DNA of 50,247 nt. Source: Minisyncoccota bacterium (lineage in GTDB: Bacteria; Patescibacteriota; Microgenomatia; UBA1400; UBA12028). The DNA lies in NCBI GenBank assembly GCA_016211945.1, contig JACRHV010000008.1:1-50247 (forward strand), given 5' to 3'. The position numbers and the translations under genes were made by a program. Below, piece after piece: positions 32,683 through 50,247 of this stretch (the first letter of the stretch is position 1; each line of letters opens with the position of its first letter). The notes under the pieces were generated by a model that was not told the DNA's origin, searched no databases, and worked only from the letters and a program-made list of their open reading frames with translations.

Positions 32683-32706
32683 CAGTCCAGACACCTATAC
32701 AGTATA

Positions 32707-32779: not shown

Positions 32780-32788
32780 CAAACGTTC

Positions 32789-32847: not shown

Positions 32848-32901
32848 TCACTGAAGGGCAACACATCGTAGTCTTCTTCTTTTTTCCACCACTTCAAAAT
32901 G

Positions 32902-32910
32902 TGCTACAGT
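32902..32910 (+). promoter_or_regulatory. extended -10 box TGcTACAGT, 6 nt upstream of ATG 32917
   Basis: TG at 32902-32903, TACAGT at 32905-32910, aagaat, ATG 32917. Confidence 0.4.
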
Positions 32911-32916
32911 AAGAAT

Positions 32917-34060: not shown

Positions 34061-34075
34061 TATGGAGAATCTACT

Positions 34076-34564
34076 ATGTGGAAACAGATGAAAAAAGGGT
34101 TTACGTTAATCGAACTTTTAGTGGTGATCAGCATTATTGGGGTGTTGGCGGGTTTGTTGTTTACAAACTTTTCTGGAGCACGGGAAAGAGCGCGTGATAT
34201 TAAAAGAAAGAGTGATCTCCAGCAAGTGAAAAATGCGTTGCGCTTGTATTACAACGACTATCAACAATACCCGGCAGATAATGGTGGGGGGAAGATATCT
34301 GGATGTGGCATAGACGGCACCTCGGTATGCGAGTGGGGAAGTCCATTTACCGCTGGTGCGGGTCAAACGGTGTATCTTAATCAGCTCCCTACGGACCCAC
34401 TTTCTACACAAACGTATTTGTATACAAAAACGAACGACGAAATTTTTCTCCTGCAGGCAAGTTTGGAGAATCTTTCCGATGATTCTGCGGTCAAAAGCCA
34501 GGTAAAATGTGGGATTCCGGAAGTCAACGCGGTACTGAAAGTGTATATAGTGTGTTCAGAGTAA
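34076..34564 (+). CDS. type IV pilin-like protein
   Basis: MWKQMKKG | FTLIELLVVISIIGVLA followed by KSDLQQVKNALRLYYNDYQQYP. GGAGA ribosome binding site. Confidence 0.85.
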   Translation: MWKQMKKGFTLIELLVVISIIGVLAGLLFTNFSGARERARDIKRKSDLQQVKNALRLYYNDYQQYPADNGGGKISGCGIDGTSVCEWGSPFTAGAGQTVYLNQLPTDPLSTQTYLYTKTNDEIFLLQASLENLSDDSAVKSQVKCGIPEVNAVLKVYIVCSE

Positions 34565-34582
34565 TGGAGATGATGGTTGTTT

Positions 34583-34909
34583 TTATGTTCCGAAGATAAT
34601 TTCGTGCTTGTGAACAAGCATGTCGGTTACACCAGATCCACTATATTTTACCGATCGAAAATCTCTATTTTTTAACTGATAGACTGGAACCGCGACAAAA
34701 CCTGCATGTGTTTCTTCAAGGACAAATCCAACATGTTTTGCCTTTACATCTGGGGAAAAATTGGCATTTCTCTCAGAATAATATGGCTCCTCTTTTACCA
34801 TCTCTTTTCCGGCATCAAGAGCAGCTTTTTTCATTCTTTGCGCTGATTCAAAACGCCGAGCAGCCTCACCTCTAGCGGAATTTTGTTGTGTATCAACAGT
34901 GCTCACCAT
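34583..34909 (-). CDS. hypothetical protein
   Basis: 108 aa from ATG 34909 (Met28 of the track ORF), preceded by GAGGAAAA. The start lies 10 nt after the stop of the upstream gene. Confidence 0.45.
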   Translation of the reverse strand: MVSTVDTQQNSARGEAARRFESAQRMKKAALDAGKEMVKEEPYYSERNANFSPDVKAKHVGFVLEETHAGFVAVPVYQLKNRDFRSVKYSGSGVTDMLVHKHEIIFGT

Positions 34910-34919
34910 ATTTTCCTCA

Positions 34920-37004: not shown

Positions 37005-37040
37005 ACGTTCTCCTTTATTTGACAAGTCTATTACGCTCTA

Positions 37041-38027
37041 TTATTCAATTTCCCACCACGTGATGTCTAGTGGGGAGTTGGGGGCAGAGGTTGTGGCGAC
37101 AGTAAATCCAAATCCAGCTTGCTTATTCTTGACATAGATTGGCAGATTTTCTATATTTTTCTCGGCGGTAACATAGAGTTGCGTCGTATCTTTCACTTGA
37201 GTGTAGGGAACAAAAACCTCCGATTTTCCAGCTTCAAGTGTAACAGAGCCGCGTTTTGCGTTTTTCTCTGCCTCACCTTGAACAGTTTCTTTTGCTTTTC
37301 CATCTTCCGGTCCTGCGATCATGGCGGTTGATTTACTTGCGGCTTGTTCTGTGGGAAGGAGATCCATTGGATTTTTTGTTGCGGGAACCTGAGTAGGATT
37401 TGGCGCGCCAAGCGACGAGGCTTTGGCAAAATCCTGATCTGCAAGCTGTTTCATTTCAGGTTTGACCACGGACGTGACTTGGTAGATGCGTCCGCGGCTC
37501 ATGTAGCCAGCAGGATCGTTAGGGTTTATGGAGATCGCACGATTAGCCGATTCAAGTGCTTGATTGAGCAAGAGGACAATCATGTCTTTTTCTTCCACGG
37601 TTTGCACGGAGCTGGAGTTAGAGAACTCGATTGCTTTCTTGAGAAAACCATTGGCAAGCGAAACCTCATATTCGAAGTTCTGCGGAGTAGGGGTTGCGGT
37701 GGACTCTGCCTGCGCCGTTTGCACAGGTGTCTCTGTTGAGAAAGGAACTTGTGCTTGTGATATCCGATTTGGCGCATCTGCGGATGCAAGCGGAGAGGTT
37801 AGTCCCTGATTAAACTTGAGTGTGCCAGCTTGTGTGAGACCGTACGCTCCGGCAACAGGAGTTGCAAAAAGCATCGAGTAAATTGTTCCAAGTTTGAGGA
37901 TGTGGAGAACGGTGTTCTTTTTTTGCGTTGCATGAGTGACTGCCGATGGAACTTGAGGTACAGCGTATGATTGGGGGATCACAATGGAGGGGGTTTCAAC
38001 AACAACCCGGGCAAGTGGAGTTTGCAT
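37041..38027 (-). CDS. membrane-anchored or secreted protein with TPR-like segment and a C-terminal domain shared with the giant protein
   Basis: Start taken at Met75 (38027) to avoid overlap with the upstream gene. TM segment ILKLGTIYSMLFATPVAGAYG. The C-terminal 65 aa align to the C-terminus of the 40005.. gene. Confidence 0.55.
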   Translation of the reverse strand: MQTPLARVVVETPSIVIPQSYAVPQVPSAVTHATQKKNTVLHILKLGTIYSMLFATPVAGAYGLTQAGTLKFNQGLTSPLASADAPNRISQAQVPFSTETPVQTAQAESTATPTPQNFEYEVSLANGFLKKAIEFSNSSSVQTVEEKDMIVLLLNQALESANRAISINPNDPAGYMSRGRIYQVTSVVKPEMKQLADQDFAKASSLGAPNPTQVPATKNPMDLLPTEQAASKSTAMIAGPEDGKAKETVQGEAEKNAKRGSVTLEAGKSEVFVPYTQVKDTTQLYVTAEKNIENLPIYVKNKQAGFGFTVATTSAPNSPLDITWWEIE

Positions 38028-38097
38028 GTATTCATAGTAAGGAATTTTGGATGATACGTCAAGGCGCGGAAGTTTTTTACAGCACAGAGCAGAAATA

Positions 38098-38637
38098 TTA
38101 GCTCTGAATTCTTGGCAAGTTGAGGTGAGCTTCAATGCGCTCAATGCGTTTTCTGTGATCATGAATCTTGTTGTCATAATCTCCAATGACCATATTAAAC
38201 GTTGCCCGTGTTTTTTTGTGTTCTCGAAGAATAGATTTTTTGATTTCACTCTTCAGTTCTTTCTTCGCATCATCAACAATACCATGGACAATCTTATGGA
38301 CGATATCAGGGACAGTTCCTTGAACAATATTTTGAACAATATTTGGTACAGTATTTTGAATAATGCCATGGACAATCCCTGGGACGGTATCCTGAATAAT
38401 GCCATAGACAATCCCTGGTACAGTATCCTGAATAATGCTATGAACGATTTTTGGAACAGTCCCCTGAATAATATCTTGAACAATCGTTGGAACAGTACCT
38501 CGAACAGTATCTTGCACAATCTTAGGAATTGAACTTTGAATAATATCCTGTACAATCTCAGGAACAGTCCCTTGAATTTCTTCCTTCATCACTGTACGAA
38601 TTTGGCTGAGATCTTGGGGGGTCAACATGGTTCGCAT
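38098..38637 (-). CDS. repeat protein: eight tandem 12-residue units (Q-x-T-V-P-x-I-V-x-x-I-I) plus charged helical tail
   Basis: The translation shows QGTVPEIVQDII / QSSIPKIVQDTV / RGTVPTIVQDII / QGTVPKIVHSII / QDTVPGIVYGII / QDTVPGIVHGII / QNTVPNIVQNIV / QGTVPDIVHKIV. The true start may be Met4 (38628), given the -10 box that abuts ATG 38637. Confidence 0.6.
   Translation of the reverse strand: MRTMLTPQDLSQIRTVMKEEIQGTVPEIVQDIIQSSIPKIVQDTVRGTVPTIVQDIIQGTVPKIVHSIIQDTVPGIVYGIIQDTVPGIVHGIIQNTVPNIVQNIVQGTVPDIVHKIVHGIVDDAKKELKSEIKKSILREHKKTRATFNMVIGDYDNKIHDHRKRIERIEAHLNLPRIQS
38287..38574 (-). repeat. 8 x 36-nt in-frame tandem repeat
   Basis: Nucleotide periodicity of 36 underlies the dodecapeptide repeats. 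The copies are diverged, not identical. Confidence 0.7.
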
Positions 38638-38646
38638 ACTGTACCA
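38638..38646 (-). promoter_or_regulatory. extended -10 box TGGTACAGT (minus strand)
   Basis: Plus-strand actgtacca at 38638-38646. It abuts ATG 38637, and the second in-frame ATG (38628) lies 9 nt downstream. Confidence 0.4.
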
Positions 38647-38733
38647 ATTTGTGCCTTGTAGAACAAGAGAACAAAACGGATCACAATAGCGCAGAAATCA
38701 CGCAGTTTTTGCGGGAGCTATTTCACTACAAGT

Positions 38734-39870
38734 CTAATACAGAAATCTTTGCGCATTCTCAAGAGTGATATATGTGACATGTTCAGTTTTTTTTGTCTTT
38801 TTTCCCGATGTTTTTATCTCATAAAGCGATTGTGTTTGCTCAGTTTTCTTTACAATATCAATTTCCGAACCAGAAGAAGAACGAAAAAATCCCAATTGAT
38901 ACGGTGTGCGTTGATACTCAAGTTGACGCTTGATCCCCATAAAGACAGCATTCTCTAAAAGTTGACCTTTATCTAGTCGGAGATGATACTCATCAAAATT
39001 ATTGATCAGCGCATTTCTTATCCCTAAGTCGGTGAAATATATTTTTTTCGCTTTGGAAATAGACTCCCGCTCATTGGTGGAAAGAGGAGTTGCTACGGTA
39101 ATCATTCCGAGTTGTTCAAAAAAATCAAGAAAACGAAGAACGGTTTCCCTATTGAGTTCCGTATGAAGCGCAAGTTCATTCACATTGACTAACTGACCAA
39201 TTTGATGCGCGAGGAGTTTTGCAAGAAAAAGAGCTTGAATCGGTTTGCGAAGATTTCCAATCTCAAGCAGATCTTTGGAAAACACATGATTCACATATTC
39301 TTTCAAGAACTGTGGATATTCTGTTAATGGAAGATTTTGTGAGGAAGGGAGAGATCCGAATACAAGATATGTGCGGAGTCGCGATTGATTTTCTTGAATA
39401 TTGTTCCATTCAGCCGAGAAATCAAATGAAAGTCCGGATTGGATATTCATCTCTGCAAGTGAGAGGGGATAGAGATGAACCTCATACACGCGCCCGGTAA
39501 GAGAATCTCCGATACTGTGCCGAATACGTATTTCTGATGAACCAGTGAGGATAAAACGTAAATCCTTATTTTTATACGTATCGTAGAGATATTTTATGGT
39601 TCCAGTTGCCTCCGGATACTTTTGAACCTCATCGATCAAAATATCATGATGTGCATAGGTTGTAGCGAATATATCTAGGCTTTCGCGATCAAATGCAGAG
39701 AATCGATGGATGTCATTGACGAGATCAAAGTTGAATCGCACAACTTTTGGACGAACAAGACTTTCAGCAAGCGTTGTTTTTCCAGTTTGACGTGCCCCCA
39801 AAAGTAAGATAATGGGACTCCATTTGGTCTCAAGGGTGTTGTGTATCTGAGCGTAGATAGTACGATACAT
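38734..39870 (-). CDS. AAA-family ATPase (AAA_14 N-domain plus DUF4143-type C-domain)
   Basis: Walker A LLGARQTGKTTLA, Walker B HHDILIDEVQ, and a C-terminal region resembling DUF4143. Confidence 0.75.
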   Translation of the reverse strand: MYRTIYAQIHNTLETKWSPIILLLGARQTGKTTLAESLVRPKVVRFNFDLVNDIHRFSAFDRESLDIFATTYAHHDILIDEVQKYPEATGTIKYLYDTYKNKDLRFILTGSSEIRIRHSIGDSLTGRVYEVHLYPLSLAEMNIQSGLSFDFSAEWNNIQENQSRLRTYLVFGSLPSSQNLPLTEYPQFLKEYVNHVFSKDLLEIGNLRKPIQALFLAKLLAHQIGQLVNVNELALHTELNRETVLRFLDFFEQLGMITVATPLSTNERESISKAKKIYFTDLGIRNALINNFDEYHLRLDKGQLLENAVFMGIKRQLEYQRTPYQLGFFRSSSGSEIDIVKKTEQTQSLYEIKTSGKKTKKTEHVTYITLENAQRFLY

Positions 39871-39876
39871 GTACGT

Positions 39877-39905
39877 ATCCTACATAATAACCACAAGTTT
39901 GTCAA
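39877..39905 (-). promoter_or_regulatory. TTGACA-N17-TAGGAT promoter, 6 nt upstream of the ATPase ATG (leaderless candidate)
   Basis: On the minus strand, TTGACA at 39905-39900, TAGGAT at 39882-39877, acgtac, ATG 39870. No Shine-Dalgarno sequence. Confidence 0.4.
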
Positions 39906-40004
39906 TATTATCCAGCAAAATAGTGCAGATAATGTTGGATGTAACATGAGATTTGAGAGATAAACATGGTCAGAGCAACTGAAATGTACCTCGTTATTCC
40001 ACGT

Positions 40005-43000
40005 TTACTCCATCTTGATGATCCAGTAGTTGAACTGAATATTTGTCGTAAGTGGTTGGTTTACCGCAACAGTAAATCCTAACCCATCCGATTTTTGTTT
40101 CACGTACAAGACTTGATTTTGTGTATTAGAAAGTGGTGTCAAGTAAATCAATGTGTTTGGAGCAACTTGTGTACTCGTCACCAAAACCTCTGTTGTTCCT
40201 GCTGGGATGGTGGCAGTTCCGGCACTCGCGTTTGCTTTTGCCTGTATGGCAAGTGTTGCGGACTCGGTGGCATTAGCAGAATCTGTTGCGTACTTTGGCG
40301 CGGCAATAGTAACAAGTTTGGTGGTGAGACTTTGGAACATTGCGGAACCGGATGCGGTAATCTCGCTGACTAACTCGCCGCGATTATTGTAGAGCGCCAA
40401 AAGGCGGGAGCGATTGGAGATGCCCGGGGCGAGCGTAAGCGCGGCAGAGTCCGTAACGATGGCATCGGCAAATGCAGCGCTCACCGTGGCATCTGTGCTA
40501 CCAATAAGTGAGGTCAAACCAATAGAAATTGATTCTGTTTGAATATCTTGTGTATAGATAGACCCATTCACATAGAGATTTCCGTTGATGGAAACATCGC
40601 CAGAATCGCTCAAAATCATACGGTTTCCAAGTAAACTGAGTGATCCACTTCCTGATGGTTGGATATATAAAGTAGTACTTTGTAATGATTCGTTACTGTT
40701 TGCGGTTGACGCCAGGCTAATACTATTGCCGGTGACAGTTAATGCTTGATTCGATCCATTCACGGTGAGTCCTGTAGAGAATTCGGCATAGTTGAAGTTT
40801 GCCAAGCCTTGGACAGAGAGGAACTCGTTGACCAGCACGGCGGTTGGAGCGATTACCTCGGTGTCGGCGACATGTGAGCCCGACTTCATATTTAATGCTG
40901 CGATGTATGCCGATGTGGAGGCGTCATTATCTGCAATCAGTGAGTTTATGAGCTCGAGTGTTGATGCTGGTGGCGTGTAGGTGATTGCACCACTTGCGGT
41001 TGCGGTGTCCATGGCATGTTGCACGGCGGATGAGATTTTGTCATCAAGACCAAAGATGCTTTGTGCGTTGATGTTGTCCGCGTACAACGTGCCAGAAATG
41101 GTGGCGTTGCCGCTGATCTGTGCATCGAGTGACTTAATAGACTCAATCTCGGCAAGCGCCGCTTGGAGTTTTTGCGCGCGGACAGATTTGGTGACAACTT
41201 CGCCGGAGAACGAGGCGTTGCCCTGGTTGTCAAACGAGGCGACGACTTCTGGATGTGTTGAGGTAGTGTTGATAATCTCGATATTCGTTGCGTTCAGTTT
41301 GAGTGCAACTGCAGAATCTGTGGCGTTGGTAGTAAGGAGGCCTGCGGAAACGGATGCGGTATGAATGACGTCTGCAACCAAACTGTTCACTTGTGCTTCT
41401 TGTGCAATAAGTTTGTCTGCCTCAACTTGACGAGCGGTAATGATATCAAAGGTGGCGCTGCTTACATTACCATTTCCGTCAAATGAGATTGCGGGGTCAA
41501 AGTAGGAGATGTTAATTGCAACATGGAGAGGAGTCTCGCCTTGTGAAGCATCCCATGACTCAACTGCACGTCCAATAATTTGTCCTGGCTGAATGGCCTT
41601 AGTGCCGTGGCCAGGAAGGGTGGAGGAAATAGTGATGGCATCGCCTGCTTGAATGGATGGGGAGGAAGGATCAATATTGACGGTGGTAACACCTTCAGTG
41701 ACAAGTGTTCGCACTGCAAGTGTTGCGTTGTTGACACGAGTGCGGTGAATGATTGCGCCAACATTTTCGTTGTCAGAAATGATACCAACCATGGTTTGAA
41801 GATCTTGTGTTGTGCGTTGGACAGGGGAAATGGTTCCAATAGAAATGGTTTGTGATGTGTTTGATGGATCTTGCTCTTGATGGTAATTGATTTTGACAAT
41901 ATGTCCAACCTCTGTAATAGGTGAGAGTACAAATTGTTCATCTTGTGAGACAACAATCGTAGTTGAGGTGGTGTCGATGGCGTCTGTTGGGTCAAAGTAA
42001 GAAGGTCCTATAAAGACAAGCACTTCACCACACATATCTCCGGTTGATGCACCATTTACAACACATGGAGACAATGATGATTGTGCTGTTAATGGCTCAA
42101 GCGCTTTTCCAATAATTTGCCCACGTTGTGTTGCTTTCATACCAACACCTGGGATATCTGATGAGGTGATTGCATCACCACGCGTAATCTCGCCATTCTT
42201 GAGTGTGACGCGTGTTGGGACACGACCAGCAAGCGCCATTTGAACACTTCCTTCATTTTTGTCACCAATAAGCCATCCGGCTTTGGTTGAAACAACACCA
42301 AGAATAGCGGGGTCATATGCTTTTGAAGAAGGGATAACCCTCTCGTTGTTGTTTGGATCAACAGAAATAATGGTTGCTTGTGTTACATCTGCAGAAGCAG
42401 GGATCCACTCAGCAAGGTCTGATCCAGCATCTTTGGAACAGTAGGTGAGTTGGATGTAGGGGGCGTTAGTGCCGGCAACAGAACCTTCATTATTAATCGT
42501 GACGCCTGTGGTACTACTGTTTATTGCGTTATACGTGTATGGTCCTCCTTGTGCAAGACCTCCATTTGCTCCTCCAGCTGCACCACTCGTATTGATGGAG
42601 TGGGTGTGACCTGGATCTGTAATTCCATGGTTATGCTGACCCACTGGTCTATTTTCTGTATTCGAAAGAGCGGTTCCAACAGTAGCACCTATAGTTCCAG
42701 AAGCTGGTGTTCCAACAATATATCTTCCCCTTGCCGCGGTGTACTCTGTCCATCCTGCTGGACAGGTAGATGCGAATGCTGCAATTTGTCCTTGAGTTTC
42801 TGGTATTGAGACCCTACCCCAAGACGTTCCATTACAATAATAGTAGGCGTTTTGTGAAGCATCATAATATTCTTTACCCGCAGCAGCAGTGTTACATGTT
42901 CCGGCTGCTGCTTGGAATGTTGGTGCGAGGGAAAAAGTTCCTGAGATTGTTGCTGATCCAGCGACATCAAGTTTTGTGGCTGGGGAAGTGGTGCCGATAC

Positions 43001-46000
43001 CGACGTTGCCTGTATTTTGTTGAACTACTACACGAGAAACTGCATTTGTAACATCTCTTATTTCAAAACCACCATTACTAACACCATAAATAAATGGGTT
43101 TAGTGAGAATGTATTACCCCCAGCATACCCCGTTGAAAGGACGAGCAATTTATCATCGCCCCCAGCAGACTCGTAAACTTCAAGTGGTCCACTTGGACTT
43201 GTTGTCCCGATGCCCACAGTCCCATCATTCTTAATGTACAACTTATCTACCCCACCAACCTGCAATCGCAGTGCGCCAGAGGCATTTGCGTCAGAGTCAG
43301 CATTGACAATAGCATCTGTTGTATTTGCAAGGTTGTTTGCACTTCCCAAACCAGCACTACTCATGGACGTTCCATCGGCAAAGTATATTGCTCCGCTACT
43401 GGTAAGTTTAATATCTCCAGCGACCTGCAACTTGTATGTTGGACTTGAATCGCCGATACCAACATTTCCATTGTTTTTAATGGTGACTCGGTCGGTGAGT
43501 CCGGCATTTCCACCTGGGGATGTTTGGATAATAAAGTCATTGCCATTGAGTTGTTTAATGTAGCCTGGGGAAGATCCAAGAACAGTCAATGAGCCGGAGA
43601 TGGAAGCACTTCCATTCACATCAAGTGCAACAACTGGCGCAGTACGGCCGATGCCAAAGTATCCGGTGTTAATAAAGCTGTTTTCCCCTGCAAGTCCGGC
43701 AAGGTGTACAAGCGCAGAGGCGGTTGCGGTTGCACCAAGGTTGAGCGATTGGTTGATGGTGACCGGAGAAATGGCGCCACTATTAACCTGCCACAGATTG
43801 GAGAACGAGGCCCAAGACGTTCCGTTGTAGTAGTACAAACCGTTATCTGTGGAGTTGACGTAGAGCGAACCAAGGCCAAGTGCTGTTGGTGCGGCGGCAA
43901 AACTTCCAATTTGGAGTTGTCCACCAGAATCAACCTTAAATTTGTCAGTTCCATTGGACTGGAAGCGCAGAAAGTTTCCGCCCGTTCCTGTTTTATTGAT
44001 CCAAATACTACTCGTGTTGGTGTTTGCATCAACGTCTGGCGTGTCCACTGGCGCCAAGCTTACCGCACCAGAGTCGGATCGCAGTCCGCCGACCACCACA
44101 TCCAAACGCATGTCTTGTGCTGAGCCGGAGTAGTTATAGAAACGCACTTTGTTACTATCGGTGACCTCGATTTTGTAGGTGGCGTTGGAGGCGTCAACCT
44201 TATCCCATTTGGTGGTACTTGCGTTGTACAGCCATCCGGTTGCGAGCAGATCACTGGTCCCTTGACCGTGATTCACCTCGACATATCCGTTGTTTGCAAC
44301 GTTGGTTGCAGCGTTGGTGTACAAGCCGTTTCCTCCGCCAACCACCTGGTCTTCCCATCGCATGCCAAGTCCATACAGTTTGGCGTTGCCGGTGATGATG
44401 ACTTTCCAACGCATCTTGGTGCCAGGGGTTTGTGAGGAGAGGTCTGCCAATCCGGAATAGATATGGATTGTGCCGGTGTCCAGACCCTGATCTGTCATGC
44501 TGACAGTTGACCATGTTGCACCGTCGTTTCGTGAGACGGAGTAGGTGAGGGTGCCGGTTCCCACGTCCGCGAGCGCGGAGAGCCACGCTTTGGTTGGTGC
44601 GGCAACAGCATCGTATGATTTGGAGACCACGGTTGCGGGGTCGGTGCCGCCGGCAGTACCGTACTCGAATTTGACGTAGTTGATGTTTGGAGGGGCTGCC
44701 TCGTTACTTTGTACTGATTGAATTGCGCGGTATTGCACAAATCGGTTGTTGGTTGAGGTGACGGTTGATCCACCAGGAATGGTGAGGTAGTCGCCACCGT
44801 AGCGCATGTCATCGATAAAGATATTTGCACCTTGGTAGCCGTCCATGACGCGGAATGTGAATCTGGTGAGCGCATTGCGTTCTGCAGTTGGGATACCAGT
44901 CACGTCAAGCCATTGTTTTTGCCACTTGAACAACTTGGAGTTTCCATCAAATCCACCCGGTGGGAAAGTGCCGGTCCAACTTCCACTCGTAATGCCGAGT
45001 GTTGTGGTGCTTCCATTGACGGTCACAGAGTTGACGGTTCCTTGCACAAGATACTCAGTTCCGCTGACATTTTCCATAAGCACGATTTTGTCATCTACAT
45101 AGATGCGACCTGTGACATCAGGGACAGTAACTGTTGTTGTTCCTGACCCTACGCTGTCAGTGGTGAGGAGCGGGTAACTTACTGGGAAGTCAACAGTGAT
45201 GGGGTATTGACGCTTGGTGATGTTGTATGTTGCGGCAATATCAGTTCCAGAACGAGCGATGTTGGACACGCGGACTTCGTCAACGACACCGTCAGTGTAC
45301 AGCGTTCCAGTTGTTGCGCGACGGCCGATGTGTGATCCGGCACCAACACCGGTTGCCAATGTTGCGGATGCAGTTGCTTTAGCTTCACCGTTCACGTAGA
45401 TGCGAACATTGGTGGCATCATACGTAGCTGCCACGTGATACCAGGTATCTGCAGTGGGAATAGTTGATGAGTTGACCGTTGTTCCATGAAGTTGGACAAA
45501 GAATCCTTTTGAGTTATCTTGAGCGATAGAGAACTCTTGGTTAGCGATGTTGGTTCCGTATCCATAAATATAGCGCTCTGTTGCGTTCACGGTTCCTGGT
45601 TTATACCACGCCTCTATAGTTCGTGCTCCTGTTCCGGTGGGAAGAGAAGTAGTGCCCGTTGAGAGATACCCTGTTGACCCATCAAACCCTCTGCCTGCAC
45701 CAATCTTTCCATGGGTAGTTGCATAGGTCGTGCCGTTTAATGTGGCATGGTTTGCTCCCGTACAGGTATCACGGATATCTGAGGCAGAGGTTCCCTCTGC
45801 TTCATCAAGATGCCACAACGAGATAGTATTCGCATCACACAGATACGAATCATAATCACTCTCCCCAATGGTTGCCTCTAACCATGTGCCTGGTCTATCT
45901 GCTGCAATATCAAATGCAAACTTGGTAGCAGAAGAGAGATCCTTGGCTGTAAAGGTTCTCACAATACGGGTATCTCTCCCTGCTCGTCCCTCTTCTGCTT

Positions 46001-49000
46001 CAAACAGAGTAGAGTAGCGTGCACTACTTCCTTTACTCACCCGAAGCTCATCAATGATACCGTTAAAGTAAGCATAGGTACCGAAATATCCTGTCCAGTT
46101 ATCTCGTCCAACGGTGTATTGGTAACTGGTGCCATAGTTCATGGTGCCAAGCGTACAGTTGGTTTGATACCGTCCATTAATATACAGATACACAATATTG
46201 TTGTTGTAGGTAAACGCAACGTTTGTCCATTGGTTGGCAGGAATCACTTGGGATGTTGCACAGGAAGCAATACCAGCGTTGTACCGTCCCCAATACAGTT
46301 GTCCAGAAGCATTTAATGCAAAAATCCAATCTACAGTGTGGTTGACGATGGTTTGTGCGACATTATTCACATTGGGTTTAATCCACGCTGTCCCATTAAA
46401 GTAGTCTTGGTGATGGACCACACTTCCGGATGAAATGAGATAGTCAGATGATCCATTAAAGTTTCTGGCTTTCCCAATGTATCCATCGACTACCGTTGTT
46501 CCGGTGGGAGTCATATCATAGGTAGTAAGTCCTGCTCCACTATTCTTAATGTATGCTCCGGTTCCTGATACTTCTTCCATGTGGAGAAGCATGAAGTCTG
46601 TACTATCAATCTGTTGGGGTTGGAGCTGCACCCGCATACTTCCTGTTCCCTCGGTCTTAATGGTGGTCTCATTCCCTTTGTTGATGGAGTACGCTGTACT
46701 GGGCACAAAGCTCCAGTTTGCACTATCCGTATCCATGGACACCACCTGCGTCTCAGAGGTAGTTGGCTTCCATGCTTCCCAAGTACTGTTGTCGGCACTA
46801 CTTCTGGTCTCAAACTCGACGTTTCCGTAGGAGCCAAGAGATTCTGTCCAGGAGAGTGGCCCTAATGCGGTCGGTGTTTGTCCTATATCCATCACCTGAG
46901 AGGTTAATACTGCATAGGGATATCGTTGGGCATCTTGTTTTAACTCCAACGCGGTTCGTGCACGACCTGAGATGCGGAAGTCATCCAAGTATCCATTCAA
47001 TGCTGAACCAGTACCACTCATACGTGAAAGGTAGTTATTTCCACTAGTGGAGAGTGGCATGGTGTTTGTACGAATAACATTATTGGTTTCAACTCCATCC
47101 ATAAAGAGTCTCCAATACGATCCATCCCAAGTTGCAGCAATGTGATACCAACGATTTGCAACTAAAGTGGAAGATGTTCCTGTATAGACAGAACCGGCTC
47201 CAACCTTAAATACAAGTTGACCTGATGAGTTGATCTGCAAGTATGACTCATTCGTTCCATCAGATGAGCGGAAGATAGTTTGTGTTCCACTTATAGCATT
47301 GGTGTACACCCATGTTTCTACTGTACCTGTAGCCAACAACGGAAATGCTCCGGTAGGTGGTTTGAAGTAGTTTGTGTCTGAGCCAACAAATGAGTATGAA
47401 TTGAGTCTTTTAATTACAGTGCTATACGCAGGTGTTCCTACAGCAGTTAAGATCTGACCATATTTTGATGAATCATTCCCATTATTCTCAAATTTATACA
47501 ACGCAAGGGTAGTAATATCATTTGGAGTTTCAACCAATGACGACTGCACATACGCGGAACTTGTTGCCTCAATACGCTCGCGCGCTTTTGCGCTATTAAA
47601 GTCTCCAGCCACTTGATGAATGAAGCTAGATGAACTGGTTGAGATACGAACGTTGTAGTTTTCTGTATCGCGAATGTAACCACCACTTGAAGATGCTGCT
47701 TCAATACCAGTAGAGTCCATAAATCGGTCAGCAACACCTTTTTCAAAAAGGCGGAATGGGGTAGAGTTTGCTCGAATATCTTTGAATGCGTTGATAAAGA
47801 TGTTGGTGATGTCTGCTTGATTCACTCCACCTTCTGTGCTGCTTGAACTTATAATTGGTTGTGGACGGAAGATCATCTCAAGATATCCACTTCCAATGTT
47901 TGCGGTAGAGGACACCACGCCGAGCATGCCAGTATGTTGCGTTGAATCTGCAACACCTTTTCCAGATTGTGTTGCGGTGTACATGTAATCGCCAATGCCA
48001 ACGCCAGAAGTGTTCGTGACATTCACATTTACTTTTCCTGCAACAGCGACAAGACATGTTTCGTTCAAGTCACAGACACCGTCTGCATCAGTGTCGCCAC
48101 CGATCTCAACACCTTGAACAACACCAGCAAGTGCTTTGGTGTATGCAGAGGTTGTTGCATTAAAGCTTGTGGCGTTTGCTTGATCGAGCACAACGAGTGA
48201 GCGCGTTGTGACGCCATTTTGCCATTTATTGGTGAGCGGAATGGCAAATCCATTACCAGCAGTGATTGTTCCGGAAACGTAGAGATTTCCATTGGAATCG
48301 AGGTACATTTTCTCTGTACCACCGTTTTTGACAGAGAGAAGTTTAGTATTTGTTGCTGTTAACGAATTTGCTGAATCAAGCGTGTATGCAATGTTGTTGG
48401 CAGCATTGGTAATTCCGGAGGTAAACACACCCGCTTGACTTAAACTCATGATGTTTGTGCCATTAGACTGGAAGCGGAAGAAGTTTCCGCCCGTTCCAGT
48501 TTTGTTAATAAAGATAGAGTTGGAACTCGATTGCGAATCAGTATCAGCAGAAGATGGCCCAAGTGTTACGGTGCCTGCGTTGGTGTTAATTCCACCCGTA
48601 ATCACATCAAGGCGTAAGTTTTGGGTGATACCAGAGTTGTTATACAAACGAACCGCATTTGCTGAGTTGATCTGGATGTTGTAGCTTGTACTCGACGCGT
48701 CAACCTTATCCCATTTCAGCGTACTTGTGTTATACACCCATCCAGTAGCAACAACCTCGCTGGTGTTTTGACCATGAATGACTTCAAGATATCCACCGTT
48801 TACCACGCTTGGATTTGACCCTGTATACAACCCTGCCGCTGATGTTGTTGAGGTCTGTGTGTCATCCCATCGCATACCCATAGCGTACAGTTTTGCATCA
48901 TTGGTAAGGGTAGCCTTCCATCGCATTCCAGTTCCCGCAGATTGACTTGCAACACTTTGATTGCCAGAGTACATGTGAATGGAGCCGGTTTCAACACCTT

Positions 49001-50247
49001 GGTCTGTCATCGGCACCTCAACCCATTCCGCGCCATTGTTTCTACTAACGTAGTAGTTAATGGTTCCTGTTGCTCCCAAATCTGCCCATGATGCAAGGTA
49101 GGCTTTGAGTGGGGTAGTGAGCGTATTAAACACCTGAGACACCATGGTTCCAGTACTACTTCCACCTGGAACTTGATAGTTAAATGTGACCGCACTTATG
49201 TTTGGAGGTGTTTGCGCGGTGTCGTTGGTGGACAAGATTGAACGATATTGAATGTAACGCTGTGGTGTAGAGGTAACGGTTGAGCCAGGGGCTGTTGGTG
49301 TGGTCATATATGCGCCACCGTATCGAATGTTATCGATCCAAATATTGGAACCTTGGAATCCGTCCATAATACGGAAGCTTAATCGAGTAATGGCATTACG
49401 CTCACCGCTTGTGATACCGGTGAGATCAAACCATTGTGTTGACCATTTCAATACCATTGCATTGTTATCGTATCCACCTGGGGGGAAGGTTCCGCTCCAT
49501 CCTCCGGAGGTTAACGTAAACGTACTTGTACTTGGGCCAACGGTGGTTGCGGTGACTGTGTTTTGCGCGCGGTACTCAACGCCGTCTTTGTTTTCGTATA
49601 TAATAATGGTGTCACCAACGCCAACTTCACCAGAGATTTCTGTCACACTCAGCGATGTATTTGATGGACCAATAATGGTAGAACTTACTGGTCTTGCGGT
49701 AAATTTGTTTGTAAAAAGGAACTGGCGTTTGGTGATGTTGTATGCGGCGGTAATGTCTGCGGCAGGACGCGCAATGTTGGAGACGCGGACTTCGTCAATA
49801 ATACCGTCGGTGTAGAGGGTGCCGGTGGTAACGCGGCGACCAATTTGAGAGCCAGAAGAAATGCCTGTATTTAACGCTCCGCCAACAGATTGGGAAAGTA
49901 CCTGTGACCCGTTCACATAAATCTTGAGCCAGGTGCCGTCATATGTTGCCGCAACGTGATACCACGTGTCTGCGACTGGAACACTTGCGCTTGGATATGT
50001 TGTTCCGTTGATATCAATAAAGAATCCATCCGTTGAGTTTTGTGCAAGCGAGAATTCTTGGCCTGCAGCATTTGCACCATATGAGTAGATATATCTTGAT
50101 GTCGAGTTTACCGTCTTCGCCTTGTACCACGCCTCAATGGTTCTGGCTCCTGTCCCGGTGGGAAGAGAAGTAGTGCCCGTTGAGATATATCCTGTTGACC
50201 CATCAAATCCTCTACCTGCACCAATCTTTCCATGTGCAGTGGCATAA
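40005..50247 (-). CDS. giant (more than 3,413 aa, 5'-truncated by the window) surface protein: multiple LamG/concanavalin-like domains plus a tail-fibre-like C-terminal half
   Basis: The frame stays open from 49916 (a GTG, not a real start) to the window edge. There are at least 4 LamG-type units (W-Y-H-(V/I)-A-(A/F)-T-(Y/W)-D ... Y-(V/I)-N-G ... (I/V/L)-D-(E/D)-(V/L/F)-R-(V/I)-S), GNVGIGTTSP-x-x-KL-x-V repeats, a collar-like CPAGW...GQHNHGITDPGHTHS segment and two GDAITSS..PG.G.KA..GQIIG(K/R)A modules. Confidence 0.85.
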   Translation of the reverse strand, partial: YATAHGKIGAGRGFDGSTGYISTGTTSLPTGTGARTIEAWYKAKTVNSTSRYIYSYGANAAGQEFSLAQNSTDGFFIDINGTTYPSASVPVADTWYHVAATYDGTWLKIYVNGSQVLSQSVGGALNTGISSGSQIGRRVTTGTLYTDGIIDEVRVSNIARPAADITAAYNITKRQFLFTNKFTARPVSSTIIGPSNTSLSVTEISGEVGVGDTIIIYENKDGVEYRAQNTVTATTVGPSTSTFTLTSGGWSGTFPPGGYDNNAMVLKWSTQWFDLTGITSGERNAITRLSFRIMDGFQGSNIWIDNIRYGGAYMTTPTAPGSTVTSTPQRYIQYRSILSTNDTAQTPPNISAVTFNYQVPGGSSTGTMVSQVFNTLTTPLKAYLASWADLGATGTINYYVSRNNGAEWVEVPMTDQGVETGSIHMYSGNQSVASQSAGTGMRWKATLTNDAKLYAMGMRWDDTQTSTTSAAGLYTGSNPSVVNGGYLEVIHGQNTSEVVATGWVYNTSTLKWDKVDASSTSYNIQINSANAVRLYNNSGITQNLRLDVITGGINTNAGTVTLGPSSADTDSQSSSNSIFINKTGTGGNFFRFQSNGTNIMSLSQAGVFTSGITNAANNIAYTLDSANSLTATNTKLLSVKNGGTEKMYLDSNGNLYVSGTITAGNGFAIPLTNKWQNGVTTRSLVVLDQANATSFNATTSAYTKALAGVVQGVEIGGDTDADGVCDLNETCLVAVAGKVNVNVTNTSGVGIGDYMYTATQSGKGVADSTQHTGMLGVVSSTANIGSGYLEMIFRPQPIISSSSTEGGVNQADITNIFINAFKDIRANSTPFRLFEKGVADRFMDSTGIEAASSSGGYIRDTENYNVRISTSSSSFIHQVAGDFNSAKARERIEATSSAYVQSSLVETPNDITTLALYKFENNGNDSSKYGQILTAVGTPAYSTVIKRLNSYSFVGSDTNYFKPPTGAFPLLATGTVETWVYTNAISGTQTIFRSSDGTNESYLQINSSGQLVFKVGAGSVYTGTSSTLVANRWYHIAATWDGSYWRLFMDGVETNNVIRTNTMPLSTSGNNYLSRMSGTGSALNGYLDDFRISGRARTALELKQDAQRYPYAVLTSQVMDIGQTPTALGPLSWTESLGSYGNVEFETRSSADNSTWEAWKPTTSETQVVSMDTDSANWSFVPSTAYSINKGNETTIKTEGTGSMRVQLQPQQIDSTDFMLLHMEEVSGTGAYIKNSGAGLTTYDMTPTGTTVVDGYIGKARNFNGSSDYLISSGSVVHHQDYFNGTAWIKPNVNNVAQTIVNHTVDWIFALNASGQLYWGRYNAGIASCATSQVIPANQWTNVAFTYNNNIVYLYINGRYQTNCTLGTMNYGTSYQYTVGRDNWTGYFGTYAYFNGIIDELRVSKGSSARYSTLFEAEEGRAGRDTRIVRTFTAKDLSSATKFAFDIAADRPGTWLEATIGESDYDSYLCDANTISLWHLDEAEGTSASDIRDTCTGANHATLNGTTYATTHGKIGAGRGFDGSTGYLSTGTTSLPTGTGARTIEAWYKPGTVNATERYIYGYGTNIANQEFSIAQDNSKGFFVQLHGTTVNSSTIPTADTWYHVAATYDATNVRIYVNGEAKATASATLATGVGAGSHIGRRATTGTLYTDGVVDEVRVSNIARSGTDIAATYNITKRQYPITVDFPVSYPLLTTDSVGSGTTTVTVPDVTGRIYVDDKIVLMENVSGTEYLVQGTVNSVTVNGSTTTLGITSGSWTGTFPPGGFDGNSKLFKWQKQWLDVTGIPTAERNALTRFTFRVMDGYQGANIFIDDMRYGGDYLTIPGGSTVTSTNNRFVQYRAIQSVQSNEAAPPNINYVKFEYGTAGGTDPATVVSKSYDAVAAPTKAWLSALADVGTGTLTYSVSRNDGATWSTVSMTDQGLDTGTIHIYSGLADLSSQTPGTKMRWKVIITGNAKLYGLGMRWEDQVVGGGNGLYTNAATNVANNGYVEVNHGQGTSDLLATGWLYNASTTKWDKVDASNATYKIEVTDSNKVRFYNYSGSAQDMRLDVVVGGLRSDSGAVSLAPVDTPDVDANTNTSSIWINKTGTGGNFLRFQSNGTDKFKVDSGGQLQIGSFAAAPTALGLGSLYVNSTDNGLYYYNGTSWASFSNLWQVNSGAISPVTINQSLNLGATATASALVHLAGLAGENSFINTGYFGIGRTAPVVALDVNGSASISGSLTVLGSSPGYIKQLNGNDFIIQTSPGGNAGLTDRVTIKNNGNVGIGDSSPTYKLQVAGDIKLTSSGAIYFADGTSMSSAGLGSANNLANTTDAIVNADSDANASGALRLQVGGVDKLYIKNDGTVGIGTTSPSGPLEVYESAGGDDKLLVLSTGYAGGNTFSLNPFIYGVSNGGFEIRDVTNAVSRVVVQQNTGNVGIGTTSPATKLDVAGSATISGTFSLAPTFQAAAGTCNTAAAGKEYYDASQNAYYYCNGTSWGRVSIPETQGQIAAFASTCPAGWTEYTAARGRYIVGTPASGTIGATVGTALSNTENRPVGQHNHGITDPGHTHSINTSGAAGGANGGLAQGGPYTYNAINSSTTGVTINNEGSVAGTNAPYIQLTYCSKDAGSDLAEWIPASADVTQATIISVDPNNNERVIPSSKAYDPAILGVVSTKAGWLIGDKNEGSVQMALAGRVPTRVTLKNGEITRGDAITSSDIPGVGMKATQRGQIIGKALEPLTAQSSLSPCVVNGASTGDMCGEVLVFIGPSYFDPTDAIDTTSTTIVVSQDEQFVLSPITEVGHIVKINYHQEQDPSNTSQTISIGTISPVQRTTQDLQTMVGIISDNENVGAIIHRTRVNNATLAVRTLVTEGVTTVNIDPSSPSIQAGDAITISSTLPGHGTKAIQPGQIIGRAVESWDASQGETPLHVAINISYFDPAISFDGNGNVSSATFDIITARQVEADKLIAQEAQVNSLVADVIHTASVSAGLLTTNATDSAVALKLNATNIEIINTTSTHPEVVASFDNQGNASFSGEVVTKSVRAQKLQAALAEIESIKSLDAQISGNATISGTLYADNINAQSIFGLDDKISSAVQHAMDTATASGAITYTPPASTLELINSLIADNDASTSAYIAALNMKSGSHVADTEVIAPTAVLVNEFLSVQGLANFNYAEFSTGLTVNGSNQALTVTGNSISLASTANSNESLQSTTLYIQPSGSGSLSLLGNRMILSDSGDVSINGNLYVNGSIYTQDIQTESISIGLTSLIGSTDATVSAAFADAIVTDSAALTLAPGISNRSRLLALYNNRGELVSEITASGSAMFQSLTTKLVTIAAPKYATDSANATESATLAIQAKANASAGTATIPAGTTEVLVTSTQVAPNTLIYLTPLSNTQNQVLYVKQKSDGLGFTVAVNQPLTTNIQFNYWIIKME
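43930..45727 (-). repeat. internal 1.8-kb module, copy B (LamG end plus following beta-rich module)
   Basis: Colinear with 48440-50247 at the protein level (RRATTGTLYTDGVVDEVRVSNIAR...WINKTGTGGNFLRFQSNGT versus RRVTTGTLYTDGIIDEVRVSNIAR...FINKTGTGGNFFRFQSNGT). There are identical nucleotide runs, such as ccggtgggaagagaagtagtgcccgttgaga. Confidence 0.8.
48440..50247 (-). repeat. internal 1.8-kb module, copy A (extends past the window edge)
   Basis: See copy B. Confidence 0.8.

What the first reader, a model, noticed from the sequence alone, without database searches (positions are those of the whole stretch)
40005..50247. Giant LamG-rich surface protein of more than 3,400 aa with a phage-tail-fibre-like distal half
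A single open frame covers 10.2 kb and continues past the window edge. The track start at 49916 is an internal GTG.
The N-proximal two thirds carry at least four LamG/concanavalin-type lectin-like units. These alternate with beta-rich modules (GGYDNNAMVLKWSTQWFDLTGITSGERNAITRLSFRIMDG...IWIDNIRYGG).
The distal third switches to tail-fibre grammar.
- GNVGIGTTSP..KL.V.G repeats (about 42960-43500).
- A collar-like CPAGWTEY...GRYIVG...GQHNHGITDPGHTHS block (about 42450-42800).
- Two GDAITSS-PG-G-KA-GQIIG(K/R)A modules (about 41570-42180).
- A long Ala/Ser/Thr-rich stalk.
- A compact C-terminal domain.
No capsid, terminase or integrase genes are nearby. This looks like a cellular adhesin built from phage-receptor-binding parts, a plausible host-attachment device for an episymbiotic small-genome bacterium.
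Basis: partly seen in the sequence, partly recalled or inferred. Interest (0 to 1): 0.72.

Follow-up and report, generated by a model that had tools for sequence, protein, structure and literature searches.

The report
Giant phage-fibre-like surface adhesin gene
A tiny-genome bacterium carries a chromosomal gene for an enormous cell-surface fibre assembled from lectin-like modules and phage tail-fibre parts, including a self-cleaving folding module, and it probably serves to grip other cells.

Summary
One frame on the minus strand is open for 3,413 codons, from the stop at 40005-40007 to base 50246. The window is a whole 50,247-bp contig, so the 5' end is simply missing.

The protein has four LamG domains. 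A 700-aa supermodule occurs twice (52-60% identity). Three or four GNVGIG..P..KL loops match solved Bdellovibrio MAT fibres. A His-rich collar-related tip domain follows.

The "GDAITSS" modules are phi29 gp12 / Peptidase_G2-type intramolecular chaperone modules. The first one keeps the gp12 cleavage motif (S2609|D2610-L-A-E). In 19 of 41 homologues the protein ends exactly after the tip domain. So the collar-like block is probably the mature tip.

The last 75 residues form a tailspike-type beta-sandwich that the neighbouring ORF also carries. The 40 kb of context is cellular (rRNA operon, rho, obg, pilins), with no phage genes.

Homologues come mostly from candidate-phyla-radiation (CPR) bacteria. 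Many are anchored by an N-terminal integrase-SAM or HTH domain plus one membrane helix.

Best reading: a giant, probably trimeric, MAT-like adhesin matured by a gp12-type chaperone. Trimerisation, cleavage and host binding are inferred, not shown. I rate it a new variant of a known kind, of moderate interest.

The parts
40005..50246 (-). 3' portion (3,413 codons plus stop) of a giant gene. The 5' end lies beyond the contig end.
   Evidence: Translation has no stop. The window is a whole 50,247-bp contig. A Logan contig is 100% identical over 28734-45663.
48120..50246 (-). Supermodule copy 1 (aa 1-709): LamG, jelly-roll-like module, further beta modules and a short fibre start.
   Evidence: 52-60% identical to aa 1508-2185 in tiled self-BLAST. 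DNA identity is about 74%.
49737..50246 (-). LamG domain 1 (aa 1-170), cut by the contig end.
   Evidence: Laminin_G_3 has four stretches. Self-BLAST aligns it to LamG 4.
49137..49661 (-). Beta-rich module (aa 196-370, '...IWIDNIRYGG'). It recurs at aa ~1700-1880.
   Evidence: In the full-library search, 138 representative proteins match at E<=1e-10, most of them on this stretch. It often sits at the C-terminal end of ~2,000-aa LamGx4/DUF2341 proteins. No Pfam or PDB sequence hit.
47952..48218 (-). Decayed chaperone-like module G0 (aa 677-765) without the D-x-A-E motif.
   Evidence: G-module HMM match, E 2e-12, from profile position 15. The equivalent module in P0199 is at 2460-2602.
46908..47426 (-). 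LamG domain 2 (aa ~941-1113).
45927..46484 (-). LamG domain 3 (aa ~1255-1440).
43692..45725 (-). Supermodule copy 2 (aa 1508-2185), including LamG domain 4 (aa 1522-1671, 45234-45683).
   Evidence: An exact 31-mer shared with copy 1 is where the Logan contig stops.
42792..43691 (-). Beta-helical fibre shaft (aa 2186-2485) with three or four 'GNVGIG..P..KL.V' capping loops and two 'YYYxNGTSW' motifs.
   Evidence: phmmer hits to Bdellovibrio MAT structures 8OND (E 4.3e-9), 8ON4 and 8OML. This stretch is covered by more than 100 homologues.
42420..42791 (-). Tip domain (aa 2486-2609), collar-related and His-rich (CPAGW..RGRYIVG..HNHGITDPGHTHS..APYIQLTYCSK).
   Evidence: 41 homologues carry it, and in 19 the protein ends right after it. 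BLAST to the Pfam-Collar region of P0178 gives E 6e-8. The orthologous region of P0133 passes Pfam Gp10_C. The fold test was inconclusive.
42417..42422 (-). Predicted autoproteolytic site, Ser2609|Asp2610 (AGS|DLAEW).
   Evidence: The profile aligns D2610 to the first residue of the released phi29 gp12 autochaperone (3GQH) and to 'NTWS|DFAEYF' in 6QZ9. D and E are invariant in 34 sequences.
41982..42419 (-). Chaperone module G1 (aa 2610-2755), Peptidase_G2 / phi29 gp12 D4 type. Contains 'GDAITSS..PGVGMKA..GQIIGKALE'.
   Evidence: The G-module HMM overlaps the PF11962 hits in P0015, P0079, P0160 and P0188.
41472..41819 (-). Chaperone-like module G2 (aa 2810-2925), lacking the motif Glu.
   Evidence: HMM E 8.6e-21 from profile position 35. 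Self-BLAST 2687-2758 against 2865-2923.
40245..41471 (-). C-terminal extension (aa 2926-3334): predicted helices, then beta structure.
   Evidence: AF2 confidence is low, with helices at model residues 13-50, 96-120, 143-160 and 170-184. The same extension follows an S74 chaperone in P0012 and P0026.
40008..40244 (-). C-terminal beta-sandwich (aa 3335-3413), tailspike-cap type.
   Evidence: AF2 pLDDT is above 90. Foldseek best hit is cyanophage Pam1 tailspike 7EEA (E 0.02, prob 1.0, 27-29% identity). Other hits are K64-1 depolymerase, R2 pyocin fibre, Sf6 and phi297 tailspikes and K1 lyase.
37044..37274 (-). Paralogous beta-sandwich at the C-terminus of neighbouring ORF 37041-38249.
   Evidence: 39% identity over 77 aa, E 2e-14. 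Weak Pfam K1-lyase_C hit, E 4e-4.

Best explanation
This is the 3' part (at least 3,413 codons) of a chromosomal gene of a CPR-type bacterium. It encodes a giant extracellular fibre that is probably a homotrimer.

**Proposed layout, from the cell outwards.**
1. An N-terminal membrane anchor. This is inferred from homologues only, because the N-terminus is not in the contig.
2. Concatenated units of LamG lectin-like domains and jelly-roll-like beta modules. Each unit is a relic of a once separate fibre, and one internal chaperone module has decayed.
3. A MAT-type beta-helical shaft with GNVGIG capping loops.
4. A collar-related, His-rich tip domain.

**Proposed maturation.**
- Folding and trimerisation are nucleated from the C-terminus by a phi29 gp12 / Peptidase_G2-type intramolecular chaperone.
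- This chaperone is extended by a helical stalk and a tailspike-type beta-sandwich.
- Once the shaft is folded, the chaperone cleaves itself off between Ser2609 and Asp2610, which exposes the tip.

**Proposed function.** The fibre binds surface glycans or proteins of another cell, most likely the host of an episymbiont.

**Shown:** the open frame, the domain homologies, the conserved motif and the cellular context.
**Inferred:** trimerisation, cleavage, anchoring and host binding.
For: - **Frame and assembly:** open frame and independent assembly.
- **LamG:** four domains.
- **Unit structure:** duplicated supermodule and decayed G0. The same unit logic appears in the 5,609-aa relative P0199, where only the last of three G modules keeps 'ADLAEW'.
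- **Shaft:** the loops match solved trimeric MAT fibres (PMC10769870).
- **Tip:** it is the terminal domain in 19 of 41 homologues.
- **Chaperone:** the G-module profile hits the gp12 autochaperone exactly at its cleavage product start. D and E are invariant. PF11962 overlaps these modules in homologues.
- **Precedent:** gp12 D4 and Dpo31 D4 are autochaperones that are cleaved off (PMC13317679). In phage T5 only the processed fibre competes for the receptor (PMC4690869).
- **Anchor:** homologues P0001-P0007 and P0126-P0134 have an N-terminal domain, then a single hydrophobic segment, then the fibre.
- **Context:** cellular, with pilin genes nearby.
- **Lineage and literature:** named homologues are mainly CPR. 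Giant membrane proteins have already been proposed as host-attachment fibres in the CPR bacterium Vampirococcus (PMC8080830).
Against: - The N-terminus is missing, so no anchor or signal sequence can be shown for this protein.
- No single-sequence Pfam hit to Peptidase_G2, Collar or Gp10_C.
- In gp12 the chaperone is the very C-terminus. Here about 650 more residues follow module G1.
- Monomer AF2 models of the tip and of the extension are of low to moderate confidence, and Foldseek gives nothing significant for the tip.
- Trimerisation could not be tested.
- The organism's taxonomy rests on homologue names and rRNA-operon features, not on a phylogeny.
- There are no expression or proteomic data.
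Confidence: 0.6

Rival explanations
1. It is the same fibre, but the chaperone-like modules are not cleaved. G1 and G2 would be permanent structural knobs, like the decayed G0. The C-terminal tailspike-type beta-sandwich would be the real distal end or a permanent trimerisation cap, and the collar-like domain would be an internal module.
For: - G-like modules occur internally without the motif (G0, G2).
- About 650 conserved residues follow G1, ending in a confident beta-sandwich like those capping Sf6, Pam1 and K1-lyase tailspikes.
- The same extension follows S74 domains in P0012 and P0026.
- The P22 C-terminal fin acts as an uncleaved autochaperone (PMC4690869).
Against: - G1 keeps the exact S|D-x-A-E motif, with invariant D and E.
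- 19 of 41 homologues stop precisely in front of that motif.
- The modules that lost the motif are exactly the internal ones.
Confidence: 0.22
2. It is a tail fibre or tailspike of a prophage, tailocin or contractile injection system that lies beyond the contig end.
For: - Module-level similarity to phage fibres and tailspikes.
- The LamG part matches PHROG 8510, 'virion structural protein'.
- The 5' flank is unknown.
Against: - 40 kb on one side is rRNA operon and housekeeping genes, with no phage gene.
- No relative was found in IMG/VR.
- Homologues carry an N-terminal membrane anchor rather than a baseplate adaptor.
- The size (over 3,400 aa, and 5,609 aa in P0199) and tandem giant genes are unlike phage fibres.
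Confidence: 0.05
3. It is a cell-envelope or matrix protein with the opposite orientation or a different role. The C-terminal sandwich, shared with the neighbouring ORF, would anchor it to the wall. The LamG arrays would then face outwards to scavenge glycans, or would build a surface layer, rather than recognise a host.
For: - The C-terminal domain is shared with the adjacent ORF.
- LamG-rich ~2,000-aa proteins carry the same beta module.
- No direct evidence of host binding exists.
Against: - Homologues have their only hydrophobic anchor at the N-terminus.
- The chaperone logic puts the C-terminus at the distal, last-folded end.
- MAT fibres are anchored at the N-terminus.
Confidence: 0.1
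4. It is a pseudogene or an assembly chimera created by the internal repeats.
For: - The contig ends inside a repeated module.
- A de Bruijn assembly breaks at the 31-mer shared by the two copies.
Against: - No stop in 3,413 codons.
- The copies are only about 74% identical at the DNA level.
- The order aa 6-2115 is collinear with an independent 5,609-aa protein.
- The Logan contig is identical.
Confidence: 0.03

Closest known systems
Bdellovibrio bacteriovorus MAT (mosaic adhesive trimer) fibres, e.g. Bd2133 and Bd3182 (PMC10769870; PDB 8OND, 8ON4, 8OML)
   Same: Both are cellular proteins, not phage proteins. Both have a beta-helical shaft with the same capping-loop motif, and the sequence match is direct. 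Both have swappable tips and a C-terminal autoproteolytic chaperone in part of the family. Both occur in a bacterium that lives on other bacteria.
   Different: MATs are about 1,000 aa, with a signal peptide and a conserved 130-aa N-terminal domain, and they use an S74 chaperone or none. This protein exceeds 3,400 aa. It carries LamG and jelly-roll arrays and a duplicated supermodule. It uses a gp12/G2-type chaperone followed by a 650-aa extension. Its homologues are anchored by a cytoplasmic SAM/HTH domain plus a membrane helix.
phi29 gp12 pre-neck appendage autochaperone D4 (Peptidase_G2, PF11962; PDB 3GQH, 3SUC, 6QZ9) and Dpo31 D4
   Same: There is profile-level homology. The S|D-x-A-E junction is identical, with D as the first residue of the released domain. 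Both sit directly behind the functional part of a trimeric fibre or spike.
   Different: In gp12 the domain is 163 aa and terminal. Here it is duplicated (G1, G2), a decayed internal copy exists (G0), and a long extension follows. The second half ('GD..TSS..PG.GMKA..IGKALE') aligns only weakly to gp12. Cleavage is untested.
Phage Tail Collar (PF07484) / T4 gp10 C-terminal domain (PF21939)
   Same: The flanking motifs are shared (G.I.aF..P.GW ... RGR..vG ... H.H). P0133's orthologous domain passes Gp10_C. Pairwise E to a bona fide Collar region is 6e-8.
   Different: About 32 residues of the Collar core are missing. The Pfam models do not hit this sequence. The fold search was not significant.
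Giant membrane proteins of CPR and Omnitrophota predators (Vampirococcus, PMC8080830; giant genes preprint 10.1101/2023.11.21.568195)
   Same: All are very large surface proteins of ultrasmall, host-dependent bacteria that have been proposed to mediate attachment. Their genes are often fragmented by assembly.
   Different: In the passages I read, those reports describe domain content in general terms and do not mention a MAT-type shaft, a collar-like tip or a gp12-type chaperone.

Membership tests
Laminin_G_3 / concanavalin-like lectin domain | Pfam PF13385 match above the gathering score | tested here: met
   264.9 bits against a cut-off of 27.6, four stretches.
Bdellovibrio-type MAT fibre | Beta-helical shaft with capping loops (V-G-G/N-pi-x-x-P-x-x-x-L type) | tested here: met
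   phmmer to 8OND E 4.3e-9, 8ON4 5.8e-5 and 8OML 6.8e-4, aligned on the GNVGIG..P..KL loops. Three clear loops and one degenerate loop.
Bdellovibrio-type MAT fibre | Signal peptide followed by the conserved ~130-aa beta-rich N-terminal domain | not testable with these tools
   The N-terminus lies beyond the contig end. Homologues use a different anchor.
Bdellovibrio-type MAT fibre | S74 chaperone with an SDxxxK motif (S74 subgroup) | tested here: not met
   No Peptidase_S74 hit and no SD.R.K match.
Bdellovibrio-type MAT fibre | Homotrimer | not testable with these tools
   Only monomer AF2 was available.
Peptidase_G2 / phi29 gp12-type intramolecular chaperone | Sequence homology to PF11962 / gp12 D4 | tested here: met
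   A profile of 34 modules hits 3GQH at E 5.9e-5, 6QZ9 at 1.7e-4 and Dpo31 D4 at 8.9e-4. The module HMM overlaps PF11962 hits in four homologues. The single sequence alone gives no Pfam hit.
Peptidase_G2 / phi29 gp12-type intramolecular chaperone | Ser|Asp-x-Ala-Glu junction at the start of the released domain | tested here: met
   AGS|DLAEW at aa 2609/2610. D and E are invariant and A is at least 90% conserved. It aligns to S691|D692 of gp12.
Peptidase_G2 / phi29 gp12-type intramolecular chaperone | Domain forms the extreme C-terminus | tested here: not met
   About 650 residues follow G1.
Peptidase_G2 / phi29 gp12-type intramolecular chaperone | Autoproteolysis after trimerisation | not testable with these tools
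   This needs protein expression.
Phage Tail Collar / Gp10_C | Pfam PF07484 or PF21939 match | tested here: not met
   No hit at E<=1 on tiles covering aa 2050-2900.
Phage Tail Collar / Gp10_C | Homology through intermediates, and fold | tested here: inconclusive
   P0133 tip passes Gp10_C at 29.8 bits against a cut-off of 27. P0178 Collar region gives E 6e-8 with a 32-aa gap. Foldseek best E is 0.9.
Prophage tail fibre | Flanking phage structural, packaging or integration genes | tested here: not met
   None in 40 kb on the 3' side of the gene. No IMG/VR relative. The upstream flank is not available.

The most novel reading that the evidence does not exclude
The family may be more than a passive adhesin. 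It could be a membrane-spanning device that links a phage-type, self-processing extracellular fibre to a cytoplasmic DNA-binding-type domain (integrase-SAM or MerR/excisionase HTH), which many homologues carry in front of their single membrane helix. Contact with a host cell, or the state of fibre maturation, could then be signalled to the genome. This would be a bacterial counterpart of the logic of MyRF, the eukaryotic membrane-bound transcription factor that uses a phage-derived chaperone domain. In this reading the giant genes also grow by head-to-tail fusion of fibre genes whose internal chaperones decay.
Probability: 0.12. Interest if true: 0.85.

Novelty: new variant of a known kind. 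Interest (0 to 1): 0.55.

Why it matters
How ultrasmall CPR bacteria recognise and hold on to their hosts is largely unknown. So far, type IV pili and unnamed "adhesins" are the only leads (PMC11665869).

This locus gives a concrete, testable candidate:
- a defined tip domain (aa 2486-2609) that can be expressed and used for host-range or glycan-binding tests;
- a predicted processing site that can be mutated.

It also extends the Bdellovibrio MAT idea, in which predators reuse phage fibre parts, to another lineage. Here the chaperone type differs and the protein is three to five times larger. The tip module appears to be shared with a DPANN archaeon.

Tried and rejected
- **Exact-DNA scans for the missing 5' end.** Scans of the GTDB genome and JGI metagenome collections found nothing.
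- **Protein-based scans.** The metagenome scan with aa 1-400 found nothing. The genome scan with the tip plus G1 found only one Woesearchaeota locus.
- **Hopping along a related JGI contig.** L004 is syntenic, but its neighbouring genes are only 48-57% identical.
- **Sequence searches of the beta-rich modules and the C-terminal 484 aa against PDB.** These gave nothing. The tip profile against PDB gave only chance-level hits.
- **NCBIfam.** It gave nothing for the giant protein.
- **The word-indexed protein database.** It listed no hit longer than about 2,400 aa, so the protein itself and its giant relatives were not returned there. Only two hits covered aa 170-640.
- **AF2 models.** The tip model has pLDDT 70.6. 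The model of aa 2925-3413 has pLDDT 52 and is good only for the last 75 aa. Both were too weak for confident fold assignment, except for the C-terminal sandwich.
- **Promoter and terminator scan of 34500-40300.** Counts were at chance level.
- **Rejected: S74 chaperone.** No such domain or motif is present.
- **Rejected: repeat-driven misassembly.** The two copies are only about 74% identical at the DNA level.
Full report
**1. The observation**

The minus-strand frame beginning at base 50246 runs for 3,413 sense codons to a stop at 40005-40007. My first attempt, from 50247, was one base out of frame and full of stops. The ORF listing gives GTG 49916 as the start only because the frame has no upstream stop inside the window.

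The first 110 codons are clearly coding. aa 1-300 are 60% identical to aa 1508-1807, and aa 6-2115 are collinear at 47% identity with an independent 5,609-aa protein, P0199.

The proteins of this window are on record from an NCBI contig of exactly 50,247 bp. The window is therefore a whole contig, and the contig end truncates the gene. "Recover it from the complete contig" is not possible.

A Logan assembly of run SRR12113407 is 100% identical over 28734-45663. It stops at an exact 31-mer shared by the two copies of an internal repeat. This explains why assemblies fragment here and independently confirms the distal 1,885 codons.

**2. Anatomy**

Residue numbers count from the contig edge.

- Pfam finds only Laminin_G_3, four times. 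PHROG hits all fall on LamG.
- Tiled self-comparison shows a 700-aa supermodule (aa 1-709) repeated at aa 1508-2185 with 52-60% identity. Two further LamG domains lie between the copies.
- The non-LamG part of the supermodule has no Pfam or PDB sequence match. The word-indexed database gave only two hits for it.
- An exhaustive HMMER search found 182 representatives for that part. Most match aa ~196-370, a module that often ends ~2,000-aa proteins with four LamG domains and DUF2341.
- From aa 2186 the grammar changes. Three clear GNVGIG..P..KL.V loops and one degenerate loop align with solved Bdellovibrio MAT fibres: 8OND at E 4.3e-9, plus 8ON4 and 8OML. In those structures such loops cap a trimeric beta-helix (PMC10769870).
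- tblastn against phage genomes gives only weak hits (25-34% identity). They fall on distal tail fibres, 'chaperone of endosialidase' genes and virion proteins.

**3. The tip**

aa 2486-2609 (CPAGWTEY...RGRYIVG...HNHGITDPGHTHS...APYIQLTYCSK) is a discrete domain.

- An HMM built from it finds 41 homologous domains. In 19 of them the protein ends exactly after '...APYIQLxxCxK'. In the others a chaperone module follows.
- Pfam Collar and Gp10_C do not hit this sequence.
- The orthologous domain of P0133 does pass Gp10_C, at 29.8 bits against a cut-off of 27.
- A pairwise alignment to the Pfam-Collar region of P0178 gives E 6e-8. It shows the two flanks of Collar conserved around a ~32-residue deletion.
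- A monomer AF2 model reached pLDDT 70.6. Foldseek found nothing significant. The top rows were phage fibres and T4 gp10, at E of about 1 or more.
- "Collar-like" is therefore a reasonable description, but membership is not established.

**4. The "GDAITSS" modules are chaperone modules**

- An HMM of aa 2605-2755 finds 104 modules in 80 of the collected proteins. It finds three in this protein: G1 at 2605-2754, G2 at 2810-2907, and a decayed G0 at 677-765.
- In P0015, P0079, P0160 and P0188 these modules coincide with Pfam Peptidase_G2 (PF11962) hits.
- A 34-sequence profile hits the phi29 gp12 autochaperone in the PDB. The hits are 3GQH (E 5.9e-5), full-length 6QZ9 (E 1.7e-4) and the Dpo31 chaperone domain D4 (E 8.9e-4).
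- The 3GQH chain is the released domain and starts 'DFAEYF'. In full-length gp12 the sequence reads 'NTWS|DFAEYF'. Here it reads 'DAGS|DLAEWIP'.
- Asp and Glu of this motif are invariant in all 34 sequences.
- gp12 D4 and Dpo31 D4 are described as autochaperones that are lost from the mature spike (PMC13317679).
- For the T5 fibre, only the processed protein competes for the receptor (PMC4690869).
- G2 and G0 lack the motif. I read this directly from the sequence.
- The relative P0199 has three G modules, and only the last keeps 'ADLAEW'. That module sits right behind a different tip, a sub-threshold H-type lectin.

This pattern has three parts: intact motifs only at the last unit, tips that differ between relatives, and proteins that stop exactly in front of the motif. 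Together they are the main argument that the collar-like domain is the mature tip and that S2609|D2610 is a processing site. Cleavage itself is not shown.

**5. Behind the chaperone**

- aa 2926-3413 are conserved in about 25 homologues. The same extension follows an S74 chaperone in P0012 and P0026.
- AF2 predicts helices and then beta structure at low confidence. The last ~75 residues form a confident beta-sandwich with pLDDT above 90.
- Foldseek's best matches to that sandwich are the C-terminal parts of phage proteins. Cyanophage Pam1 tailspike scores E 0.02, probability 1.0, 27-29% identity. The others are a Klebsiella depolymerase, the R2 pyocin fibre, phi297 and Sf6 tailspikes and K1 lyase.
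- The same sandwich ends the neighbouring ORF 37041-38249, at 39% identity and E 2e-14. That ORF weakly hits Pfam K1-lyase_C.
- This leaves room for the main rival. In that reading the modules are not cleaved and the sandwich is a permanent cap, as proposed for the P22 fin.

**6. Context and lineage**

The rest of the contig is cellular.

- Housekeeping genes include pth, lgt, trxB-like, gdh, mnmA, S1, radA, rho, an M23/LysM peptidase and obg.
- Four tRNA genes are present.
- The rRNA operon has protein genes lying between the 16S and 23S genes. One LAGLIDADG ORF lies inside the 23S gene and a second lies between 23S and 5S.
- Three pilin-like ORFs lie at 32899-34564.
- Downstream of the giant gene, on the same strand, are an AAA_14/DUF4143 ATPase, a 179-aa ORF, the sandwich-bearing ORF and a TPR protein.
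- I found no phage structural, packaging or integration gene, and IMG/VR has no relative.

To my knowledge, an rRNA operon interrupted by protein genes and homing-endonuclease insertions is typical of CPR bacteria. The named homologues are mostly CPR: Nealson-, Dojka-, Levy-, Woese-, Uhr-, Kaiser- and Gottesmanbacteria. The tip domain also occurs at 50% identity in a Woesearchaeota (DPANN) genome. The CPR assignment of this contig is an inference, not a phylogenetic result.

**7. Anchoring**

The N-terminus is missing.

- Homologues that share the whole 1,000-aa distal cassette are P0001-P0004, at 31-34% identity over aa 2413-3410. They start with a Phage_int_SAM-like domain. Others start with a MerR/HTH_17 domain.
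- That domain is followed by a single hydrophobic segment around residue 85-125 and then by the fibre.
- Among 150 Met-starting homologues, 37 have such a segment at residues 41-400 and 28 have it within the first 40 residues.
- This suggests N-in, C-out anchoring with the tip distal, as in MAT fibres. For this protein it is only an analogy.

**8. Comparison and verdict**

The closest known system is the Bdellovibrio MAT family. These are cellular, trimeric, phage-like fibres with swappable tips and, in part, a self-cleaving chaperone.

The present protein shares the shaft motif by direct sequence match. It differs in these ways:
- three- to five-fold greater length;
- LamG and jelly-roll arrays;
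- unit concatenation with decayed internal chaperones;
- a gp12/G2-type chaperone instead of an S74-type one;
- a long C-terminal extension;
- a different anchor in its homologues.

Giant surface proteins have already been proposed as attachment fibres in CPR bacteria (PMC8080830) and as adhesion devices in Omnitrophota. The general idea is therefore not new. The specific architecture and the predicted processing site were not mentioned in the papers I searched.

I rate it a new variant of a known kind, with interest 0.55. Its interpretation is partly supported, with a corrected parse of the distal end.

Noticed in passing
window 14789-24983: The rRNA operon is unusual. Protein-coding ORFs (17710-19634, including a 2'-5' RNA ligase-like gene) lie between 16S and 23S. 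The 23S gene is about 460 nt longer than the model and has a LAGLIDADG ORF inside it (22417-22899). A second LAGLIDADG ORF (23927-24388) lies between 23S and 5S.
   Followed up: partly
window 50247 (contig end) and 45633-45663: The window is a complete 50,247-bp NCBI contig. The Logan contig of SRR12113407 ends at an exact 31-mer (TCTCAACGGGCACTACTTCTCTTCCCACCGG) shared by the two supermodule copies. Internal repeats are therefore what fragments this gene in assemblies.
   Followed up: yes
homologues P0001-P0007, P0010-P0026, P0126-P0134, P0182: Many fibre homologues begin with a Phage_int_SAM-like or MerR/excisionase HTH domain, followed by one hydrophobic helix and then the extracellular fibre. 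Some are annotated 'site-specific integrase' or 'excisionase'. A DNA-binding-type domain tethered to a surface fibre is unexplained.
   Followed up: partly
L003 7604-8017 (Candidatus Woesearchaeota, JAGVZH010000009.1); P0139: The collar-like tip domain occurs at 50% identity in a DPANN archaeal genome bin. This suggests module exchange between bacterial and archaeal episymbionts, or a binning error.
   Followed up: no
L002 42-26871 (JGI Ga0394881_0000140, 364-kb contig): P0199 is a 5,609-aa relative that is also cut by its contig end. It has three units, and only the last G module keeps 'ADLAEW'. Its tip is a sub-threshold H-type lectin instead of the collar-like domain. A 4,265-aa gene with BNR repeats follows it directly.
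   Followed up: partly
window 37041-38249 and 34920-37025 (minus strand): The ORF downstream of the giant gene ends in the same 77-aa beta-sandwich as the giant protein (39% identity). A 701-aa TPR protein follows it. The pair is syntenic in a related JGI contig, L004, at 57% and 48% identity.
   Followed up: partly
window 32899-34564: Three consecutive ORFs carry pilin-type N-terminal methylation motifs, within 6 kb of the fibre gene cluster.
   Followed up: no
P0188 (1,511 aa): A VgrG-like protein (Phage_GPD plus Phage_base_V) carries three of the same chaperone-type G modules at its C-terminal end. The module is therefore also used on spike proteins of contractile systems.
   Followed up: no
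window 8057-11267: A cluster of 7TM_transglut, ATPgrasp_ST and MATCAP-like genes. It is unrelated to the finding.
   Followed up: no
P0012, P0026: The ~400-aa C-terminal extension (helices, beta region, terminal sandwich) follows an S74 chaperone in some CPR fibres and a G2-type chaperone in this one. It therefore appears independent of the chaperone type.
   Followed up: partly
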